Assembly: GCA_951406725.2 (NCBI GenBank) | Contig: OX597834.1 | Coordinates: 7,316,001-7,380,000 of the forward strand | DNA length: 64,000 nucleotides | Reading direction: 5' to 3' | Origin: Octopus vulgaris | Taxonomy: Eukaryota | Part shown: positions 8,004 through 62,061 of the stretch, piece by piece | Layout: every line of letters starts with the position of its first letter | Position numbering within the stretch: position 1 is the first letter of the stretch | The notes under the pieces: model-generated | The model's database searches: none | Seen by the model: the letters and a program-made list of their open reading frames with translations, nothing else | Told to the model about the DNA's origin: nothing | Position numbers and translations under genes: made by a program

Positions 8004-8109
8004 ATATATATATATATATGTGTGTGTGTGCGTGTATATATGTATATATATATATATGTATGTATCTATGTATATATATGTATGTATCTATGTATATATA
8101 TATATATAT

Positions 8110-8278
8110 AACTCTGAGTTTTGGATGCCAATGTGGAAATCCACAACACCATCTCTTCGGTTATCTGGCCATCTGAAAAACGGTATGAAAACGCTTTTTA
8201 CATAGCGTTTTTCAGATGACCATCTAGCCGAAGAGATGGTGTTGTGGATTTCCACTTCGACATCCGAAACTCAGAGTT
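8110..8278. repeat. Inverted repeat (fold-back) next to (TA)n
   Basis: aactctgagttttggatg...ccacaacaccatctcttcgg vs ccgaagagatggtgttgtgg...catccgaaactcagagtt. Confidence 0.85.
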
Positions 8279-8284
8279 TTATCT
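8221..8284 (+). ncRNA. Degenerate hammerhead (CCGAAGA core) in hairpin element, homolog of 15112-15174
   Basis: CCGAAGA gatg...catc c GAAAC TCAGA GTT ttatct. Downstream tail (attgtcacatatt...gataaatttcctctatttacataa) is shared with 15040-15110 minus. Confidence 0.5.
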
Positions 8285-9981: not shown

Positions 9982-10199
9982 TGGTTGGCAGAACCGTTAG
10001 CACGCCGGACAAAATGCTTCACGGTATTTCGTCCGCCGTTACGTTCTGAGTTCAAATTCCGCCGAGGTCGACTTTGCCTTTAGTCCTTTAGGGGTCGATA
10101 AATTAAGCACCAGTTACGCACTGGGGTCGATGTAATCGACTTGAACCGTTTGTTTGTCCCCTCTGTGTTTAGCCCCTTGTGGGTAGTTAAGAAATAGGT
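9982..10199 (+). mobile_element. SINE family B
   Basis: ggcagaaNcgttagcacgccgg...gagttcaaattcc (B box)...ggggtcgataaattaag. Confidence 0.88.
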
Positions 10200-10480
10200 A
10201 TATAGTGAGTGCAAAACCATGAGCTGGCGGAATTGTTAGCACACCAGGCATATAATAACATGAAATATTATAAATCTTTAAAGTTGTTCTAGAATATTCT
10301 TTTTATTTGATCAAATTGGTAACTGGAATCTTCTAAGATAAGTTCCTTCCATGGAAAAGATGAAATCATGACTCTCAGTTTAACATATCAAAAAGAAGCC
10401 GAACTACTTCATAAAGTTTACTTGATGAGGAGGCTATGCAGGAATGAGAGGCTATTATATATAAAGATACGTTGTTGATA

Positions 10481-15571: not shown

Positions 15572-16329
15572 ACACGGACATACAGAAACACACACAAACA
15601 CACACACACACGGACACACACACAAACTCTCTCTCACACACACATACTTACACTTATACATATATATATCAGGATTATCATGATCGTCATCATCATTTAA
15701 AATACATGTTCTACGCTGGCATGGATTGGATGCTTTAACAGGATCTGATGGATCCAAATACTTCATCCTCCTCCGAAGTCTGCTTCTATATGTTTTCGAA
15801 GGTGAATAAGTATCGACAGCTAGCAAGCCGTGACACTGCAGACAGATGAGGACCAATGACTCTGAAACCAGTCCCTGGATGCTGGCTTTGCAGGGTGGAT
15901 GTGCTTATCTCCCCTCTTTGAAAACCACAGGACACAGAACGCATGTGTCACATGGCTAACGGGAAACAGAGTTTCCTGAGGCTAAATAGTAGTACCATTT
16001 CCTCCTTTCCTGGGACTGCCATATTAAGTTGGCAACAAACCATCACTGTATATATATATATATAGGGATGGCATTATTAAAATACCATCACAAGTGGTAA
16101 GCGAATTATCAACCGTACAGGCAAATTAATAAAATATAAACATACAATATTAGATATGTACATATCTAATATTGTATTCATATATTTTATTACCACTTGT
16201 GATAGTATTTTAATAATACCATCCCTATATTTATATATAAATAATTTTACACATGTCGTTTGTTCCATTTCAAACGAACTTTTGCAGGCATGATGGTAGG
16301 GAATGTTAGTAGTAATTTATCTGGCGAAC

Positions 16330-18746: not shown

Positions 18747-18788
18747 ATACCATATATATATATATATCTATATATATGTATATATAAA

Positions 18789-18953
18789 CAAAATAAGCAA
18801 CAAGGATATTCAAGGTAGAGTAGTGCAATTGTTTCATGCTAAGATTGCTCGACATTTTAATAAAACTGATGTAATACTTACAGTGTTTAATAAAATGAAG
18901 TAGCATGAAACGATTGTACTACTCTACCTTGGATATCCTTATTGCTTATTTTG
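18789..18953. repeat. Inverted repeat, ~53-bp arms, next to (TA)n
   Basis: caaaataagcaacaaggatattcaaggtagagtagt...catgcta vs tagcatg...actactctaccttggatatccttattgcttattttg. Confidence 0.85.
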
Positions 18954-19244
18954 ATTATAATCACCCCATTTGATTTACATGGATAATACCATACAAAATT
19001 CTGGTACCTTTAACTTAAGTACCATATTCATCTGAATCTAAATTTTTCTGAACTTATATATATATATATATTTATGCATACGCGCGCGCGCGCGCACACA
19101 CACATATGTGGTGTATCTTCTTCTTCTTCTTCTGTTGTTCAAGGTTGAATATGTAGCCGTAAAAATAACTCTGAGGGGAGTGAACGCCAAAGGGAGTCGA
19201 TCACTCTGGAGGTGGTGAGAGTGGAGAACGTCATGGCGGCTAGC

Positions 19245-34789: not shown

Positions 34790-34850
<61 letters not shown>

Positions 34851-35059
34851 AAATGGAAAGATGAATTTTCTTGTTACAGATTATTCAAAAGTTTAACCGA
34901 TACCTGGGTAGCAAAAATCACAGCAGAAAAAAACACGGTTGGAGATAAGACCATTTGGTGTTGCAACCGTGCGTTGGTGCGGATAATTGAAGTTTAATAT
35001 AATTAGTGAATGGAAGAAATGGAGTTGAACGAAGATTGTACAGAATTCCTTTTATTACA

Positions 35060-35139
35060 TTCTACACATGTTTCAAAGGCCACAATTTTCCAAATTCAGA
35101 TTAAATAAGGATACCATATTGCAGCTTTCTCTTCAGGAA
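35060..35139 (-). ncRNA. Type I hammerhead ribozyme in left arm (sense to the GIY-YIG ORF)
   Basis: Minus strand: ttc CTGAAGA gaaagctgcaat...attgtggccttt GAAAC ATGT GTA gaa. Stem I ttc/gaa, long stem II, cleavage triplet GUA. Confidence 0.75.
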
Positions 35140-35790
35140 AAACCAGGAATTACGTTGTCAGAACAAAACAAAACAGAGGCGCAGCAAAGCAATTCGAACG
35201 AGGACGCTCCCTAAGAGCCCATTGGTTAACTGTTTATCAATGTACGTTGAAATCGGGGGGTTGGTGGGGGCCGACAAAAGGTCCGTTGGAATAATTACAG
35301 GTCAGGCCGCGGTCAAATCTAGTAGGTGAGGAATTAATGAGAACAAGGGGTGTGGAGATGTTCTGTGTGACCAAAACTAATGTTCTGAATATTTTAAGAA
35401 TACAGGGTGTATTTCTTAGGGGCGAGACAAAACCTACCTTAAAGCATGTATGTGTATACTAGCCTATGTGTGCGCGGCCGTATGTTGGCGAGGGGCGCTA
35501 GATAATGAGCACTGCTGAAAAAAGCCTGTCAGGCGGCTGAAAAAATTCTGTGTTCGTGTGTTCGTCTGTGGCCTGCTTGTCTAAAAATTAATATCGTCAA
35601 AGAATCATAAGGGTATATATAATTCCAGCGTTTGCTTCTAAAAAAAAAAAAAAAACCGACCAATCGCCTAATGGGAGTAATTTCCCCTTGCAAGAGTTAT
35701 TCATAGATTTTTTAAAAAGTTTTCTCAAAAATTATTTCCAAAAATTATTTTCATTTTAATAGGGTAACAAGGTGTTAACTGTCTTAGGTA

Positions 35791-36498
35791 TCATTTATAT
35801 GTAAGATAAGTATGGCGCCGCCAATGGTGACATCGAAAAGCCGTCTGTAAAAGCCCGTTTACCAAACGGCCTCTGGCGAACAATATGTGGAAAAGCTCAG
35901 AGTTACAAAGATTACACCTCCTTCTGCCCCTATCAAACGGGAGGGCCACCGACAAAATCGACCATTCCAGCCTAAACACTGAATTCGCGTTCTTCAAACG
36001 CCAGATAAGTTTGCTAAGTCCTGTAGCTTGGTATTTATTAACGTCGCGAAAAGTTGCGAAATGGTTCGATATTCTCAAGGCCAATTTTGATGATGAGGCC
36101 CCGACATACGAGTAGACATCTGAATCCGTGTAAACATTGCATTGGTAAATGGCATTTCTGATCTTGGAGTTACTAGACAAGAACCTTATTCTATTGGGAT
36201 TAGCTTCTGATATTAATACTGCGTTTCTGTTACTATATTGACTGTGAGAACTGCGGCCGCCTACTACATTATACTCCTCATTATCACTATTAATTAACGG
36301 ACTAACCCCTGTGTATTCCCTATCACTGAGAACGCTGTAATTGCTAGTATCCGTGGACCTGCTATTGCCGGAAACGATGCTAAAGTTGTTATTAGGACTC
36401 TCTACATTAATGACCCGAACTGCGCTCACCTCCCTATTACCATTACTAACGTTATTAACATCACCATTTCTTCCATCGCTAATCATTGGCGGCGTCAT
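35791..36498 (-). CDS. GIY-YIG endonuclease of Penelope-like type with N/S-rich N-terminal region, no RT
   Basis: NAIYQC...YSYVGASS..LALRISNHFATF...TGLSKLIWRLK...LEWSIL...CNLCNSEL...LVN...CHH matches the PLE C-terminal endonuclease pattern (GIY, YIG, R, H, CxxC-E, N, C-x-H). 235 codons open; the ATG lies inside the inverted arm. Confidence 0.85.
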   Translation of the reverse strand: MTPPMISDGRNGDVNNVSNGNREVSAVRVINVESPNNNFSIVSGNSRSTDTSNYSVLSDREYTGVSPLINSDNEEYNVVGGRSSHSQYSNRNAVLISEANPNRIRFLSSNSKIRNAIYQCNVYTDSDVYSYVGASSSKLALRISNHFATFRDVNKYQATGLSKLIWRLKNANSVFRLEWSILSVALPFDRGRRRCNLCNSELFHILFARGRLVNGLLQTAFRCHHWRRHTYLTYK

Positions 36499-37165
36499 AC
36501 TTATCTTACATATAAATGATACCTAAGACAGTTAACACCTTGTTACCCTATTAAAATGAAAATAATTTTTGGAAATAATTTTTGAGAAAACTTTTAAAAA
36601 ATCTATGAATAACTCTTGCAAGGGGAAATTACTCCCATTAGGCGATTGGTCGGTTTTTTTTTTTTAGAAGCAAACGCTGGAATTATATATACCCTTATGA
36701 TACTTTGACGATGTTAATTTTTAGACAAGCAGGCCACAGACGAATACACGAACACAGAATTTTTTCAGCCGCCTGACAGGCTTTTTTCAGCAGTGCTCAT
36801 TATCTAGCGCCCCTCGCCAACATACGGCCGCGCACACATAGGCTAGTATACACATACATGCTTTAAGGTAGGTTTTGTCTCGCCCCTAAAAAATACACCC
36901 TGTATTCTTAAAATATTCAGAACATTAGTTTTGGTCACACAGAACATCTCCACACCCCTTGTTCTCATTAATTCCTCACCTACTAGATTTGACCGCGGCC
37001 TGACCTGTAATTATTCCAACGGACCTTTTGTCGGCCCCCACCAACCCCCCAATTTCAACGTACATTGATAAACAGTTTACCCATGGGCTCTTAGGGAGCG
37101 TCCTCGTTCGAATTGCTTTGCTGCGCCTCTGTTTTGTTTTGTTCTGACAACGTAATTCCTGGTTT

Positions 37166-37245
37166 TTCCTGAAGAGAATGCTGCAATATGGTATCCTTAT
37201 TTAATCTGAATTTGGAAAATTGTGGCCTTTGAAACATGTGTAGAA
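37166..37245 (+). ncRNA. Type I hammerhead ribozyme in right arm
   Basis: ttc CTGAAGA gaatgctgcaat...attgtggccttt GAAAC ATGT GTA gaa. Confidence 0.75.
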
Positions 37246-37300
37246 TGTAATAAAAGGAATTCTGTACAATCTTCGTTCAACTCCATTTCTTCCATTCACC

Positions 37301-37342
<42 letters not shown>

Positions 37343-37856
37343 ATGGTGAATGGAAGAAATACATTTATAAATGTACATATATAAATATATATATATAAAT
37401 ATATATATAAATATATATACATTTATAAATGTATATATATAAATATATATGCATATATATATATATGCATATATGTATATGTATATATATGTATATATAT
37501 ATGTATATATATATAAATGTATGTATATATATATATAAAATAGAAAAGAGTGAAAAAACTACAGAAGGCTTGTTTTATAAGGCTATATATACATATATGC
37601 GGTGCTCCAGCATGGCCACAACCACTGAGCTGAAACATATTAAAGAATAAAAGAGTATAATATATATGTACACTCACACACACACGCATGCACACATACA
37701 TACACCAACATATGTAAATATTCACACATATGCATCTGTTTGATTATACAAACCAGCAAAAATACTCAGTAATGAAATGAAGAGTATTTAGTGATGAGTT
37801 TTCGCTCTGTTGTAACGTCGATCTTTCCGCATATTCGCTTACCATGCAGCAGAAAA

Positions 37857-37929
<73 letters not shown>

Positions 37930-37932
37930 CAT

Positions 37933-38107
37933 ACTCTTTTACTCTCCTTTACTTGTTTCAGTCATTTGACTGTGGTCATGCTGGAGCAGCGCCTTTTAAT
38001 CGAGCAAATTGACCCCAGGACTCATTCTTTGTAAGCCTAGAACCGCTAAGTAACGGGGACGTAAACGTACCAGCATCAGTTGTCAAGCGATGTTGGGGGG
38101 ACAAACA

Positions 38108-38154
<47 letters not shown>

Positions 38155-38338
38155 AAACATATATATATATATATATGCGACAGGCTTCTTTCAGTTTCCG
38201 TCTACCAAATCCACTCACAAGGCTTTGGTCGGCCCGAGGCTATAGTAGAAGACACTTTCCCAAGGTGCCATGCAGTGGGACTGAACCCGGAACCGTGTGG
38301 TTGGTAAGCAAGCTACTTACCACACAACCACTCCTGCG

Positions 38339-38341
<3 letters not shown>
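37933..38341 (-). mobile_element. SINE family A
   Basis: Homology to 2919-3350. Confidence 0.9.
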
Positions 38342-38377
<36 letters not shown>

Positions 38378-38860: not shown

Positions 38861-39435
38861 TAAGGCGGCGAGATAGCAGAATCGTTAGCACGCCGGGCGA
38901 CATGCTTAGCGGTATTTTCTCTGCCGTTACGTTCTGAGTAAAAAAATTCGACTTAATGTAATCGACTTAATCTGTTTGGCTGTTCTTGTTTGTCCCCTCT
39001 GTGTTTAGCCCCTTGTGGGTAGTAAAGAAATAGAATCGTTAGCACGTCGGGCGAAATGCGTAGCCGTATTTCGCCTGCCGTTACGTTGTGGGTTCAAATT
39101 CCGTCGAGGTTGACTTTGCCTTTCATCCTTTAGGGGTCGATTAAATAAGTACCAGTTACGCACGGGGGTCGATCTAATCGACTTAATCCTTTTGTCTGTC
39201 CTTCTTTGTCCTCTCTGTGTTTAGTCTCTTGTGGGTAGTAAAGAAATAGGTATTTCGTCTGCAGTTACGTTCTGATTTCAAATTCCGCCGAGGGCGACTT
39301 TGCCGTTCATCCTTTCGGGGTCGACAAATTAAGTGCCATTTACGCACTGCGGTCGATGTCATCGACTTAATCCATTTGTCTGTCTTTGTTTGTCCCCTCT
39401 ATGTTTAGTCCTTTGTGGGCAATAAAGAAATAAGA
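38861..39435 (+). mobile_element. Tandem SINE B array (3 units)
   Basis: Repeated ...ttgtggg..taaagaaata junctions. Confidence 0.85.
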
Positions 39436-39556
39436 ATACTCCCAGCGATTTGGGAATTCTAAAGATCAATATGCTCTATTTGTACTCTTATAAGTTCTTA
39501 ACAGAACACACCTCAACTGACTATATATAAGTATATGTATACATATGAATATATAC

Positions 39557-41278: not shown

Positions 41279-41437
41279 AAATAAATGTATTTGCATTTTT
41301 TCAGTGTGTACAAACAACATGGAAAAACTAAATAAACAGTTACCAGGTTAGCAAAAAATTCCTATAAGTTCTAAGGATGTTACGATCTACTTATAAAGGT
41401 AGAAATTCCAGGGTTTATTGAAATGTTTTTGTATAAC

Positions 41438-41688
41438 AGATAAATAAAGAAATGGAGTTAAACGCAGGTGTTATTCGAATCTTTATACTCCCGACATTTG
41501 TTTCAAAGAAAACATTGGAATTACTCCAGAGAGAATAAAATGATGTAAAACAATGCAATTTCCTCATCAGGAAAAGAAAGAGAAACAAAATACACCAATT
41601 AGCCATTTTAACCAAATGTGATTACTGCGCGTCGGAAATATAAAGATTTGAATAACACCTGCGTTTAACTCCATTTCCTTATTCATCT
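41438..41688. repeat. Inverted repeat (41438-41495 / 41631-41688) flanking an HHR
   Basis: gaaatggagttaaacgcaggtgttattcgaatctttata..ccgac vs gtcgg..tataaagatttgaataacacctgcgtttaactccatttc. Confidence 0.88.
41488..41575 (-). ncRNA. Type I hammerhead ribozyme
   Basis: Minus: ttttc CTGATGA ggaaattgcattg...caatgttttcttt GAAAC AAAT GTC gggag. Confidence 0.7.
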
Positions 41689-42036
41689 TATATATACATA
41701 GCAAAATTCGACGAACAGTGGGGAAGCACTGCAAAGCAAAGATGCACCACGTGGTAGTAGGACGACACACGACGCCGCCGGTCGGCATAATGATACCTGA
41801 AGGTCGCATCAAGTGGTATCTATAAGCGGAAGACTGAACTGCAACGGGCTTGTCCCAGACAGAACAATTCCGTTTAGTTTTGGGTTCCCCCTCGTACTTT
41901 ACTTCTGAAGAAAACCCATATTGGATACAGCTTAAATTTTACAATTCCTCTCTGTACGATATGATTGTTTGTGTCCATGCTGCTTTTACTTCTCTCTCAC
42001 GTGTAGCGTCGAAGAACTTTACAGCCTTGACTTAAA

Positions 42037-45581: not shown

Positions 45582-46190
45582 AAGGTGGCGAGCTGGCAGA
45601 AACGTTAGCACGCCGGGCGAAATACTTAGCGGTATTTCGTATGCCGTTACGTTCTGAGTTCAAATTCCGCCGAGGTCGACTTTGCCTTTCATCCTTTCGG
45701 AGTCGATTAAATAAATATCAGTTACGCACTGGGGTTGATGTAATCGACTTAATCCGTTTGTCTGTCCTTGTTTGTCCACTCTATGTTTAGCCCCTTGTGG
45801 GTAATAAAGAAATAGGTATTTCGTGTGCCGTTACAATCTGAGTTCAAATTCGGCTGAGATCGACTTTGCTTTTCATCCTTTCGGGGTCGATTAAATAAAT
45901 ACCAGTTACGCACTGGGGTTGATGTAATCGACTTAATCCGTTTGTCTGTCCTTGTTTGTACCCTCTATGTTTAGCCCCTTGTGGGTAATAAAGAAATAGG
46001 TATTTCGTGTGCCGTTACAATCTGAGTTTAAATTCGGCTGAGATCGACTTTGCTTTTCATCCTTTCGGGGTCGATTAAATAAATACCAGTTACGCACTGG
46101 GGTTGATGTAATCGACTTAATCCGTTTGTCTGTCCTTGTTTGACCTCTCTGTGTTTATCCCCTTGTTGGTAGTAAAGCGATAGAAATAGG
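45582..46190 (+). mobile_element. Tandem SINE B array (3 units, ~185-bp period)
   Basis: ggtatttcgt..gccgttac restarts at ~45631, 45815, 45999. Confidence 0.9.
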
Positions 46191-49332: not shown

Positions 49333-49630
49333 AGGGAATGAAAAATAAAAACATTCACTATCTCCTAGATCAGGATTTCTGACTTTATATTAGCAAATAA
49401 AATAATTTGCTAGGCGAAGTCTTCATCAACAGGTACGCCTAGATTAAACATATAAATACGAGGTAATCCAGCAGGTGCCTCGTGCTTATATATAATTTTT
49501 CAAAATTTGGGTTGCCTCGTATTTATATGTTAAATCTAGGCGTACCTAGCAAATTATTTTATTTGCTAATATAAAGTCAGAAACCATGGTCCAGGAGAGG
49601 GATGGCAAATGTTTTTATTTTTCATTCCCT
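49333..49630. repeat. Fold-back element (arms 49333-49470 / 49508-49630), family of 7367-8003
   Basis: Shares ggRaatgaaaaataaaaac tail and ttcgcct..tttgctaa stem II with the 7.6-kb element. Confidence 0.85.
49364..49433 (-). ncRNA. Degenerate hammerhead in left arm of fold-back 49333-49630
   Basis: Minus: cctg TTGATGA agactt...aagtca GAAA tcctga TC tagg. The right arm keeps GAAACCATGGTC cagg (49580-49595) but has lost the CTGANGA segment. Confidence 0.6.
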
Positions 49631-51719: not shown

Positions 51720-51724
<5 letters not shown>

Positions 51725-52180
51725 TGATCAAAATAAAATAAAAACATGATGCGAAGGATTCAGCGGTACATATGATTAGACAGATTTATAACAATGTATA
51801 ATGTATGTCTGTGGCCTTCTTCAGCCGCGCACAACAGCTACAAACATGTGTTACATCAAAATTCTGGTTGGGATGAATCCTCTCATTCGCGGCAAGGATC
51901 CATCAATGTAGAATGTTTATCATTCTACATTGAGAGAAGAAGGAGATGGACGCTTCAATTCTATGCTGCTGCCGCATTATGTCGTACGCGAATGAGAGGA
52001 TTCGCATCCCCAACCAAGAATTTTTGATGTAACACATGTCCTTGTGGAAGCTGTTGTGCGCGGCTGAAGAAGGCCACAGACATACATTATGCATTGTTAT
52101 AAATCTGTCTAATAAAGGCCCGAAACATATGTACCGCTGAATCCTTCGCATCATGTTTTTATTTTATTTTGATCAATTTA
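51720..52180. repeat. Fold-back element (arms 51720-51891 / 51987-52180) with HHR
   Basis: aaattgatcaaaataaaataaaaacatgatgcgaaggattcagcggtacatatg vs reverse complement. The left arm lacks the aaaggcccgaaa segment. Confidence 0.9.
52060..52137 (+). ncRNA. Type I hammerhead ribozyme
   Basis: gcgg CTGAAGA aggcc acaga...tctgt...ggccc GAAAC ATAT GTA ccgc. Palindromic ACATATGT stem III. Confidence 0.82.
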
Positions 52181-55684: not shown

Positions 55685-56499
55685 TCCTACAAAATTAGAG
55701 ACATACAGTTATAGATAGTGTGACACATACACATACACAAACAGTGTGACACATACAGAGTGACTCACACGCAAGCACGCACACACTGAAACACACACAC
55801 ACACGCACCTGCAGTTACAAACGTACACACAGGTAATCACGAGTTTAAAATGGCTTAGAGTAGACATACGTGTGTATATATGTACGTATGGCCATCTACT
55901 CCCTCTCTCCTTAAAGCTATGTATTCTTGACACCACCTTTCTTTCCTTTCCTCAGCGTTTTAAGAATTATTTAGGTGCATGTGCGTGTGTGTTTGTGCAT
56001 GTATCTATGTATTTACGAAAGTATGTATGCACCGTCGCGTGTATAAAGCAGCTGTATTGTCGTTACCATACCATTGTCACTCAATATTTGTCGCTTACAT
56101 AACACCGTTATCCCCTTCCCTGATATCAGTCACAATAACTATGCTATTACATTTCCCTCGCACTGCCACTTTTCGCACCCTTCTCATTTTTTCGTATAAT
56201 AGCCCAACTCCATTATGGGACCATTTTAAACATTTTTTATTGCAAGCTAATGATTTGAATATAATTGAACTGGATGTTAGCTTAACATGTATGCAGAGTT
56301 TCGTCAACATTGGTTCACTGGTGTATGCAGTAGAGTGACAGACAGAAATTGCTATTTATGTATTATATATAATATATATATATATATATTTAATAATTAT
56401 TTGAGGGGATATTAATCCTAACTTACAGGGAAAAAATTTAATTTAGAAATACTAAATCAAATTTCACACAATATGATATATATATATATATAAAACTTA

Positions 56500-56621
56500 G
56501 TAAAAAATACCTTTTATCAGTTCAAAATGAACAATTAAATTACACCACTTAATATTTCTATTATATGTAATTTTCTAGATGGTGTAATTTAATTGTTCAT
56601 TTTTAATTGATTAAAGGTGTT

Positions 56622-56627
<6 letters not shown>
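56500..56627. repeat. Short inverted repeat between (TA)n tracts
   Basis: aaaatgaacaattaaattacacca vs tggtgtaatttaattgttcatttt. Confidence 0.75.
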
Positions 56628-56666
<39 letters not shown>

Positions 56667-59925: not shown

Positions 59926-60006
<81 letters not shown>

Positions 60007-60010
<4 letters not shown>

Positions 60011-60301
60011 GAAATGAAGAAAATGCTGACAAAATAATTGAAGTAAGGGAGAGTGTATTTAATTAGGTGAAAGTTCTTTTTACCGGTTGCGCATTTGTTA
60101 TGCTTATCAAAAGATATTTTGAGTTCCTTTCTGATTGATTTTTTTCTCTTATCTGATAAGAGAAAAAAATCAATCAGAAAGGAACTCAAAATATCTTTTG
60201 ATAAGCATAACAAATGCGCAACCGGTAAAAAGAACTTTCACCTAATTGAATACACTCTCCCTTACTTAAATTATTTTGTCAGCATTTTCTTCATTTCCTT
60301 T
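60007..60301. repeat. Near-perfect 295-bp palindrome (1-nt spacer at 60154) carrying a hammerhead-like motif
   Basis: 147-bp arms with 2 mismatches seen. 60195-60232: ctt TTGATAA GCAT aacaa ATGC GCAA CCGG TA aaaag, mirrored at 60076-60113. Flanked by (TA)n. Confidence 0.9.
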
Positions 60302-60339
60302 TTTTATATATCACAACTCGTGTTCCACATCTCTTTTTT

Positions 60340-60429
<90 letters not shown>

Positions 60430-60750: not shown

Positions 60751-60984
60751 ACTTTATGTATGAATGTACGTGATGTGATACAGACTGCAAGATTGATGCA
60801 ACATAGTATGATGTACAGCAACCAGCATCCCATCAGACGCAGGATGAATTGAAACGATCGTCGTAAAATATACAGAATTATACTAATTCTATCTTCTATT
60901 CACTTAATCGATTATATATACATACACACGTACGTACATATGCAAACACATTCACACACATATAGATGCATACTCTTTTACTCT

Positions 60985-61193
60985 ATTTTTTTTACTTGTT
61001 TCAGTCATTTGACTGCGGCCATGCTGGGGCACCGCCTTTTGTCGAGCAAATCGACCCCGGGACTTATTCTTTGTAAACCCAGTACTTATTCTATCAGTCT
61101 CTTTTGCCGAACAGCTAAGTGACGGGGACGTAAACACACCAGCATCGGTTGTCAAGCAATGCTAGGGGGACAAACACACACACAGAAACACAT

Positions 61194-61251
<58 letters not shown>

Positions 61252-61413
61252 GACAGGCTTCTTTCAGTTTCCGTCTACCAAATCCATTGACAAGGCATTG
61301 GTCAGCCCGAGGCTATAGTAGAAGACACTTGCCCAAGATGCCAATCTGTGGGACTGAACCCGGAACCATGTGGTTGGTAAACAAGCTACTTACCACACAG
61401 CCACTCCTGCGCC
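60985..61413 (-). mobile_element. SINE family A
   Basis: Homology to 2919-3350. Confidence 0.9.
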
Positions 61414-62061
61414 TCCTGCTTTTATACTCTCTGCTCCTCCTTCTCTTCAATTATGCGTCTTCACTTTCCATTTTTATCATTAATCACTGTTTTCTCTCTA
61501 AAACTTCATTTAGTTACTGCAGTTCTCCATAATGCTTCCCTGTTGCTGTAACTTTTCTCCGTCTTTCTCTTATTCTTTGTCTCTTCCGCCGACACAACTG
61601 GGAAACAAATTGCATCTCTTTCCCTCTTCTCAAAGCGATAACATCATCTTCTCTCTCGTAGCGCAACAATTTATTCCATTTTCAGAATAATTCATGCTAA
61701 AATATGGTTGGTGACAGACTGTATCTTCCTCATGAAACAGTAATAATCTTGATGGTATTGTTGCTATATCAGAAATAATTACGAAGAAAATGTATTAATT
61801 AAGATGCAGTAAAGCTGGAATATTTAAACGATGTTATAAAGTCTCACCTGAATACTTAACAACATCAGTTTTTTTCAAACCATGAAAGTCAATTGCAATT
61901 AATTTTATTTTCATGTTTTGATATCCGGTTTGGTAGTAGGACAGTCACTGAGGGATATCCAAGATGTGATCTATACACATTACTATACAATATACACAGA
62001 CACGCACAAAATAAGATAGTGATGGTGATGATGTATATGCAGTTCTTTCTTTCTTCCTCTG

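What the first reader, a model, noticed from the sequence alone, without database searches (positions are those of the whole stretch)
34997..37308. 2.3-kb fold-back element encoding an RT-less GIY-YIG endonuclease between two ribozyme-bearing inverted arms
Seen: ~830-bp near-identical arms (about ten substitutions, so probably recent) and an uninterrupted 235-codon ORF keeping the expected catalytic positions (AIY, YVG, R, H, E, N) and a CxxC...CxH motif. The order on the minus strand is ORF, ~650-nt UTR, HHR, ~60-nt tail. The ~115 residues upstream of the nuclease are N/S-rich low complexity, not the RT thumb or Cys-rich linker expected in an autonomous PLE. Inference: either an endonuclease-only PLE lineage that could supply TA-nicking activity in trans to the small HHR elements, or a truncated and inverted copy of an unusual PLE.
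Basis: partly seen in the sequence, partly recalled or inferred. Interest (0 to 1): 0.82.

Follow-up and report, generated by a model that had tools for sequence, protein, structure and literature searches.

The report
Truncated fold-back Penelope-like retrotransposon copy
This 2.3-kb hairpin-shaped insert is likely two head-to-head, cut-short copies of a Penelope-like jumping gene whose octopus relatives still carry the reverse transcriptase in the same reading frame, so it is probably an ordinary insertion product and not a nuclease-only element; its one unusual trait is a nuclease linker without the cysteines seen in described relatives.

Summary
In detail: arms 34997-35826 and 36484-37308 (98.2%, 10 substitutions), a 235-codon ORF with a GIY-YIG fold (I-TevI, Z 9.8) and a hammerhead-like motif in each arm. 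The 'RT-less lineage' reading does not hold. An Octopus sinensis protein (P0002) is 81% identical over 68 nuclease residues and 51% over the N/S-rich region, and it continues upstream in frame through RT thumb and RT motifs 4-7. Two more O. sinensis models show the same thumb-to-linker join. The N/S-rich stretch is therefore the RT-nuclease linker, and the window's ATG comes from the antisense of the inverted arm. The nuclease is Hydra-clade type (no CCHH; CxxC..E..N..CxH; (TA)n neighbour). An inverted 5'-truncated copy is the published insertion pattern of Penelope-like elements, including one Hydra family. What is new is small. This octopus branch lacks the CxCX5C linker found in 9 of 9 Hydra families in the published alignment, and a ~20-nt match to the element's own 3' tail sits exactly at the inversion junction. 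No genome or reads could be examined.

The parts
34997..36483 (-). Copy A: 5'-truncated PLE copy (distal linker, endonuclease, 3' UTR, hammerhead, tail), 1487 nt
   Evidence: self-BLAST; ORF and alignment to RT-bearing relatives
36484..37308 (+). Copy B: shorter inverted 5'-truncated copy (last codons of the ORF, 3' UTR, hammerhead, tail), 825 nt
   Evidence: 98.2% to 34997-35826, 10 substitutions, 5 gap columns
35791..36498 (-). 235-codon ORF with stop; codons 1-5 come from the antisense of copy B
36154..36483 (-). Distal part of the RT-endonuclease linker, N/S-rich (37%), no cysteine
   Evidence: 51% identical over 93 aa to P0002 362-454; 66% over 35 aa to P0161
35794..36153 (-). Hydra-type GIY-YIG endonuclease (AIY, YVG, R, H, CxxC, E, N, CxH)
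   Evidence: 2091 representatives at E<=0.001; conserved columns; fold match to I-TevI, Z 9.8
35151..35790 (-). 3' UTR, about 640 nt
   Evidence: between the stop codon and hammerhead stem I
35044..35151 (-). Type I hammerhead-like motif of copy A; predicted cleavage after 35063
   Evidence: descriptor scan and constrained fold; not found by Rfam
37154..37261 (+). Type I hammerhead-like motif of copy B; predicted cleavage after 37242
36464..36483 (+). Junction segment matching the element's own 3'-terminal sequence (19 of 21 columns)
   Evidence: local alignment; 0 of 2000 resampled regions score as high with copy A's tail, 2 of 2000 with copy B's
37304..37335 (.). (TA)n run abutting the 3' end of copy B; likely target
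37340..37360 (-). Isolated ~21-nt piece of the element's 3' terminus beyond the (TA)n run

Best explanation
The fold-back is likely a single retrotransposition product of a Hydra-like Penelope-like element: two 5'-truncated copies (1487 and 825 nt) joined head to head, the longer one cut inside the linker that in close octopus relatives joins the reverse transcriptase to this GIY-YIG nuclease. Shown: the arms; the nuclease motifs and predicted fold; RT, thumb, linker and nuclease collinear in relatives; the ATG lying in the inverted arm. Inferred: a full-length donor elsewhere in the genome (ORF of about 900 aa, of which about 670 aa are missing here) supplied RT and nuclease. The nuclease nicked AT-rich/(TA)n DNA, RT copied the RNA from its 3' tail and stopped early, and the second arm was made either from a second priming event or by fold-back of the first cDNA. 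The tail-like 20 nt at the junction would fit a template switch via the tail. The copy would be dead on arrival: no RT, and a fortuitous start codon. Each hammerhead has a 1-2 bp, self-complementary stem III and would need a partner in the same orientation, which an inverted pair cannot supply in cis.
For: P0002 1-157 aligns to RT-bearing P0162 314-472 at 40%, E 5e-34. Its motifs match the columns labelled RT 4(B), 5(C) and 7(E) in the published Hydra alignment (compared by eye). P0002 vs window: 81% over 68 nuclease residues, 51% over 93 linker residues; sister rows in the nuclease tree, 96/84. P0161 and P0007 repeat the thumb-linker join on other contigs. Craig et al. 2021 (PMC8557442) describe the adjacent inverted 5'-truncated copy as frequent, define the Hydra nuclease as lacking CCHH with CxxC and CxH around E and N, and report (TA)n targets. 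Their supplement lists an octopus Hydra family and one Hydra family with a 5'-truncated inverted copy attached. Six other small fold-backs that I judged not to be SINE pairs lie in the window; 3 of 6 abut a (TA)n run and 2 of 6 contain a hammerhead core. At about 0.6% divergence per arm roughly four substitutions are expected in the ORF, so an open frame needs no selection (my estimate). Stem III self-pairing is -6.8 kcal/mol, as in the dimer model of Cervera and de la Pena 2014.
Against: The RT-bearing proteins are relatives (81% in the nuclease), not copies of this family, and are predicted gene models; P0002's C-terminus leaves the family sequence, so it is probably spliced or frameshifted. 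No Pfam or PDB-sequence hit names the RT. No RT remnant lies elsewhere in the window. The Hydra CxCX5C linker is absent. No genome was available and no reads were laid. How the second arm formed is not resolved.
Confidence: 0.85

Rival explanations
1. A subfamily lost its RT, gained a start codon from the inverted arm and now spreads as a fold-back unit with RT borrowed in trans, possibly supplying nuclease to small hammerhead elements.
For: Open 235-codon frame with an ATG and all predicted catalytic positions; no RT in the window; published non-autonomous PLE derivatives exist, though in the passages read none is said to encode an endonuclease.
Against: One copy in 64 kb. The break falls mid-linker and relatives continue into RT. 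Youth alone explains the open frame. A transcript through the arms would form an 825-bp hairpin. The small fold-backs share no BLAST-detectable similarity with this element.
Confidence: 0.06
2. An ordinary single truncated PLE copy was partly duplicated in inverted orientation after insertion by a replication template switch.
For: The junction has a segment complementary to the element's end, which could guide a switch.
Against: Both arms end at the element's 3' terminus and include no flanking host DNA. The same geometry is published as a PLE insertion pattern.
Confidence: 0.05
3. The inverted arms are an assembly artefact.
For: PLE tandem and inverted structures are reported to disturb assemblies; reads were not examined.
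Against: The arms differ by 10 substitutions and 5 gap columns, have different flanks, and similar but more diverged fold-backs occur nearby.
Confidence: 0.04

Closest known systems
Hydra clade of C-terminal EN+ Penelope-like elements (Craig et al. 2021, PMC8557442; includes Hydra-1_Obim from Octopus bimaculoides and Penelope-13_HM)
   Same: C-terminal GIY-YIG without CCHH, CxxC and CxH flanking E and N, hammerhead near the 3' end, (TA)n neighbour, RT motifs in relatives matching the Hydra alignment, inverted 5'-truncated copy (recorded for Penelope-13_HM).
   Different: No CxCX5C linker (present in 9 of 9 Hydra rows seen); linker about 165 aa in P0002 against 35-47 aa in 8 of the 11 other RT- or thumb-bearing relatives measured (the remaining three are 80, 201 and a misparsed row); about 640-nt 3' UTR; inferred length of at least 3.5 kb against under 3 kb for most Hydra families. 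Its hammerhead differs from that listed for Hydra-1_Obim.
Poseidon element PAc of Anolis carolinensis (Frangieh et al. 2024, PMC11167929)
   Same: Mechanistic model: GIY-YIG cleavage of AT-rich DNA on both strands, RT initiation at two nearby sites giving a short 'tail', a hammerhead inactive without protein.
   Different: Different PLE clade; there the hammerhead overlaps the ORF start of the next tandem unit, here it follows a long 3' UTR. Nothing was assayed for this element.
Minimal PLE hammerheads and non-LTR retrozymes (Cervera and de la Pena 2014, PMC4209133; bioRxiv 10.64898/2026.07.22.740005)
   Same: Type I core, extra nucleotide 5' of stem II, long stem II, tiny self-complementary stem III; pairs of motifs on opposite strands were attributed to truncated PLEs.
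   Different: Retrozymes are non-coding head-to-tail tandems; this is a head-to-head pair with a coding remnant.
Stand-alone GIY-YIG ORFs of bdelloid Terminons (as described in PMC8557442)
   Same: A nuclease ORF without RT in the same frame.
   Different: Those nucleases keep CX2-5CxxC and CCHH; this one has neither, and its relatives are fused to RT.

Membership tests
Penelope-like elements, EN+ | GIY-YIG endonuclease | tested here: met
   motifs; fold Z 9.8 to I-TevI, rmsd 2.4 over 89 residues
Penelope-like elements, EN+ | RT and endonuclease in one ORF | tested here: met
   met in close relative P0002; this copy itself has no RT
Penelope-like elements, EN+ | Tandem or inverted 5'-truncated copies, tail | tested here: met
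   against the description
Penelope-like elements, EN+ | Hammerhead motif near the 3' end | tested here: met
   own descriptor, 7 cores vs 0-1 in 20 shuffles; same layout with other letters at 41570(-); Rfam silent; cleavage not assayed
Hydra clade | No CCHH motif; CxxC and CxH either side of E and N | tested here: met
   one cysteine only near the GIY strand; C195/C198, E201, N214, C223/H225 (definition)
Hydra clade | CxCX5C linker before the nuclease | tested here: not met
   no cysteine in the 112 residues upstream; also absent in P0001, P0002, P0007, P0003, P0011
Hydra clade | RWK and DKT motifs of the RT N-terminus | not testable with these tools
   no recovered member of this branch extends upstream of RT motif 4; the motifs are seen only in more distant relatives P0155, P0162, P0165
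Hydra clade | Insertion into (TA)n | tested here: inconclusive
   right end abuts (TA)n, left end is 153 nt from one; 6.3% of the window lies in or within 5 nt of such runs; one insertion only
Hydra clade | Placement in the Hydra clade of an RT tree with all PLE clades | not tested
   my tree holds only 37 nuclease rows from the search hits, with no reference families or outgroup
Terminon-type stand-alone endonuclease | CX2-5CxxC and CCHH motifs; ORF separate from RT | tested here: not met
   motifs absent; relatives fused to RT; definition
Non-LTR retrozyme | Non-coding head-to-tail tandem of hammerhead units | tested here: not met
   head-to-head pair with a coding remnant; definition

The most novel reading that the evidence does not exclude
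A Hydra-like subfamily in octopus has lost its RT and spreads as this fold-back unit, with the inverted arm supplying a new start codon for a stand-alone nickase that helps mobilise small hammerhead elements; its cysteine-free linker would also show that (TA)n targeting does not need the zinc-finger linker.
Probability: 0.06. Interest if true: 0.65.

Novelty: new variant of a known kind. Interest (0 to 1): 0.25.

Why it matters
The locus itself looks ordinary. Two modest points remain. First, Craig et al. link the cysteine linker to (TA)n targeting; an octopus branch without it is a natural test of that idea if its insertions can be counted genome-wide. Second, the tail-like segment at the inversion junction may record how PLE inverted structures form, which the same paper names as an open question. 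It also shows an annotation trap: these remnants are named 'dyrk1 kinase', 'myb-like' or 'GATA zinc finger' in RefSeq because of their N-rich linker.

Tried and rejected
No genome was held, so copy number, dN/dS and upstream extension in this genome were not tested. The run search listed 24 runs, 20 holding part of the stretch and 2 holding half its words or more; no RNA holder was listed; I draw nothing from it. The word-index search for longer relatives of residues 100-230 found none among 127 candidates; this blank was misleading, since the 544-aa relative surfaced through cluster membership. Pfam named neither domain in any protein scanned, apart from a weak GIY-YIG hit on P0001 (E 0.031) and unrelated families on P0069; a profile search of PDB sequences found nothing. 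A metagenome scan found no relative. A structure prediction for P0002 had not finished at the last poll, so the RT fold is unconfirmed. Rfam: no hammerhead. No target-site duplication was evident by eye beyond TA. Linker census: of 149 representatives, 95 had at least 28 residues upstream of the first nuclease tyrosine; 55 had CxCx4-9C, 31 a partial set and 9 no cysteine; 3 of those 9 belong to this branch, and the other 6 look like out-of-frame starts (my judgement). One linker length (P0155) was misparsed and dropped. Paper searches (listings only, except the papers named) showed no report of an endonuclease-only PLE lineage or of a cysteine-free Hydra branch.

Full report
Observation. Self-BLAST gives one inverted pair, 34997-35826 against 37308-36484, 98.2% identical, and no other copy in the window. 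A global alignment shows 10 substitutions and 5 gap columns. The minus strand holds an ORF from 36498 to 35794 (235 codons) with a TGA at 35793-35791. The first five codons lie in the antisense of the right arm, so the start codon is a by-product of the inversion. The element is best read as copy A (36483 to 34997, minus strand) and copy B (36484 to 37308, plus strand), joined at their 5' ends with 3' ends pointing outward.

The nuclease. Pfam does not recognise it. A full HMMER scan finds 2091 representatives at E<=0.001, whose conserved columns include the Y, G, R, H, CxxC, E, N and CxH positions. The model of the last 140 residues (pLDDT 89) matches I-TevI best (Z 9.8, rmsd 2.4, 89 residues), then T4 EndoII (7.6), a 5hmC restriction nuclease (6.4) and UvrC (6.0). 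Foldseek ranks the same proteins first but not significantly. Craig et al. 2021 (PMC8557442; abstract, introduction, passages, sections 11, 12 and 15, and supplement rows and part 58 read) define the Hydra clade nuclease by the absence of CCHH and by CxxC and CxH either side of E and N, with hammerheads and (TA)n targets. This fits.

Is it RT-less by nature? No, on the evidence of relatives. The only near hit, P0001 (O. sinensis, 64% over 155 aa), has a cluster partner P0002 of 544 aa. P0002 begins with RT motif 4, continues through a YRDD motif, FLD and the thumb, then about 165 N/S-rich residues, then the same nuclease. Its first 157 residues are 40% identical to the RT of the full-length P0162 (E 5e-34), and its motifs match the columns labelled RT 4, 5 and 7 in the published Hydra alignment (by eye). 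Against the window it is 81% identical over 68 nuclease residues and 51% over 93 linker residues. P0161, on another contig, has the same thumb-linker join and aligns without gaps to window residues 3-37 after the junction (66%). P0007, on a third, joins a thumb-end motif to the same nuclease. In a tree of 37 nuclease rows the window and P0002 are sisters (96/84) and group with P0007 (100/97). From these registers about 670 residues are missing from copy A (inference). No RT remnant lies elsewhere in the window. Limits: these are predicted gene models of relatives, P0002's tail looks spliced or frameshifted, no library named the RT, the fold job on P0002 did not finish, and neither a genome nor reads were examined. 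The host is probably an octopus, judged from the closest named proteins.

The hammerhead. Each arm has CUGAAGA, a long stem II, GAAA, a tiny stem III, GUA and a stem I of 3 bp extended by further helices. My descriptor finds 7 cores in the window against 0-1 in 20 shuffles. A smaller fold-back at 41432-41694 has the same layout and a similar tail with other letters. Rfam misses all of them. The monomer prefers another fold by about 5-6 kcal/mol, while stem III is self-complementary (-6.8 kcal/mol). This matches the minimal PLE hammerheads proposed to work as dimers with low activity in vitro (PMC4209133, parts 1-2 of 4 read). In PAc the hammerhead needs protein and is dispensable for insertion in vitro (PMC11167929, parts 1-2 of 4 read). 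In an inverted pair only one sense ribozyme lies on each transcript, so cis dimers are not expected here (inference).

The fold-back. An inverted 5'-truncated copy adjoining the 5' end, and a 30-40-bp tail, are described as common in PLE insertions. The Hydra table lists Penelope-13_HM with such a copy and an octopus family, Hydra-1_Obim. Six other small fold-backs in the window that I judged not to be SINE pairs (8106, 16051, 18783, 41432, 49333, 51720) point the same way: 3 of 6 abut (TA)n and 2 of 6 hold a hammerhead core. Passages of an O. vulgaris repeat annotation list 31 recently active Penelope-like families (PMC13282606, passages only). Earlier AI notes on other genomes reached similar verdicts for short fold-backs; they are unchecked and not counted as support.

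Mechanism. Shown: anatomy, motifs, collinearity with RT-bearing relatives. Inferred from PLE biology: a full-length donor's protein nicked AT-rich DNA, reverse transcription began in the 3' tail and ended early, and a second shorter copy was laid in the opposite orientation, by second priming or by cDNA fold-back. One clue: 36464-36483 matches the element's own 3' end in 19 of 21 columns (0 of 2000 resampled regions score as high with copy A's tail, 2 of 2000 with copy B's), and a third tail piece lies at 37340-37360. Either the tail was captured by a template switch, or the native linker is complementary to the tail; P0161 aligns across this stretch, so I cannot decide. With about four substitutions expected since insertion (my estimate), the open frame needs no selection.

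What differs from the known clade. The CxCX5C linker is absent in the window and in P0001, P0002, P0007, P0003 and P0011, but present in 9 of 9 Hydra families in the published alignment block and in 55 of 95 assessable representatives. All seven rows I labelled cysteine-free fall in one 10-row branch (100/99, midpoint root only). I therefore file it as Hydra-like, working like a Hydra PLE, but not as a strict member. Since the linker was proposed to steer (TA)n targeting, the branch could test that idea; one insertion beside (TA)n, in a window where 6.3% of positions are so placed, does not. Four paper searches showed no report of this branch in their listings; the bioRxiv retrozyme preprint was read in part 1 of 5 only, and its supplements were not seen.

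Verdict. Observation confirmed; endonuclease-only reading unlikely (0.06); truncated, inverted Hydra-like PLE copy 0.85. New variant of a known kind, interest 0.25.

Noticed in passing
window 41432-41694: Small fold-back with a hammerhead core at 41570(-) and a 3' tail resembling this element's; likely the end of a related PLE family.
   Followed up: partly
window 51720-52180: Fold-back abutting (TA)n with a clean hammerhead core at 52064(+); the partner arm has lost the GAAA part.
   Followed up: partly
window 8106-8282, 16051-16239, 18783-18959, 49333-49630, 56471-56654, 59929-60397: Further short fold-backs, most beside TA runs; the last two BLAST spans include TA runs themselves.
   Followed up: partly
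window 15168(-), 18740(-), 54347(+), 16335(+): Other hammerhead-like cores outside fold-backs; the first three pass my descriptor, the last only a looser pattern.
   Followed up: no
window 34845-34996: About 150 nt between the left end and a (TA)n run; by eye its minus-strand end resembles a PLE 3' terminus, so copy A may sit in an older PLE remnant. Not tested.
   Followed up: no
window 37340-37360: Isolated ~21-nt piece of the element's 3' end, inverted, beyond the right (TA)n run.
   Followed up: partly
window, e.g. 741-1153, 37930-38345, 60970-61414 and 9986-10207, 39032-39438, 45582-46188: Two abundant dispersed repeat families of about 420 and 230 nt, some tandem (184-nt unit) or in inverted pairs; probably SINEs (my guess).
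   Followed up: no
P0001, P0002, P0007, P0161, P0163: RefSeq names these PLE remnants as kinase, myb-like or GATA proteins; the names likely follow the N-rich low complexity.
   Followed up: yes
P0029 (Argonauta hians), P0062, P0166: Hydra-type proteins with long N-rich linkers that keep the cysteine motif, so linker expansion and cysteine loss look like separate changes.
   Followed up: partly
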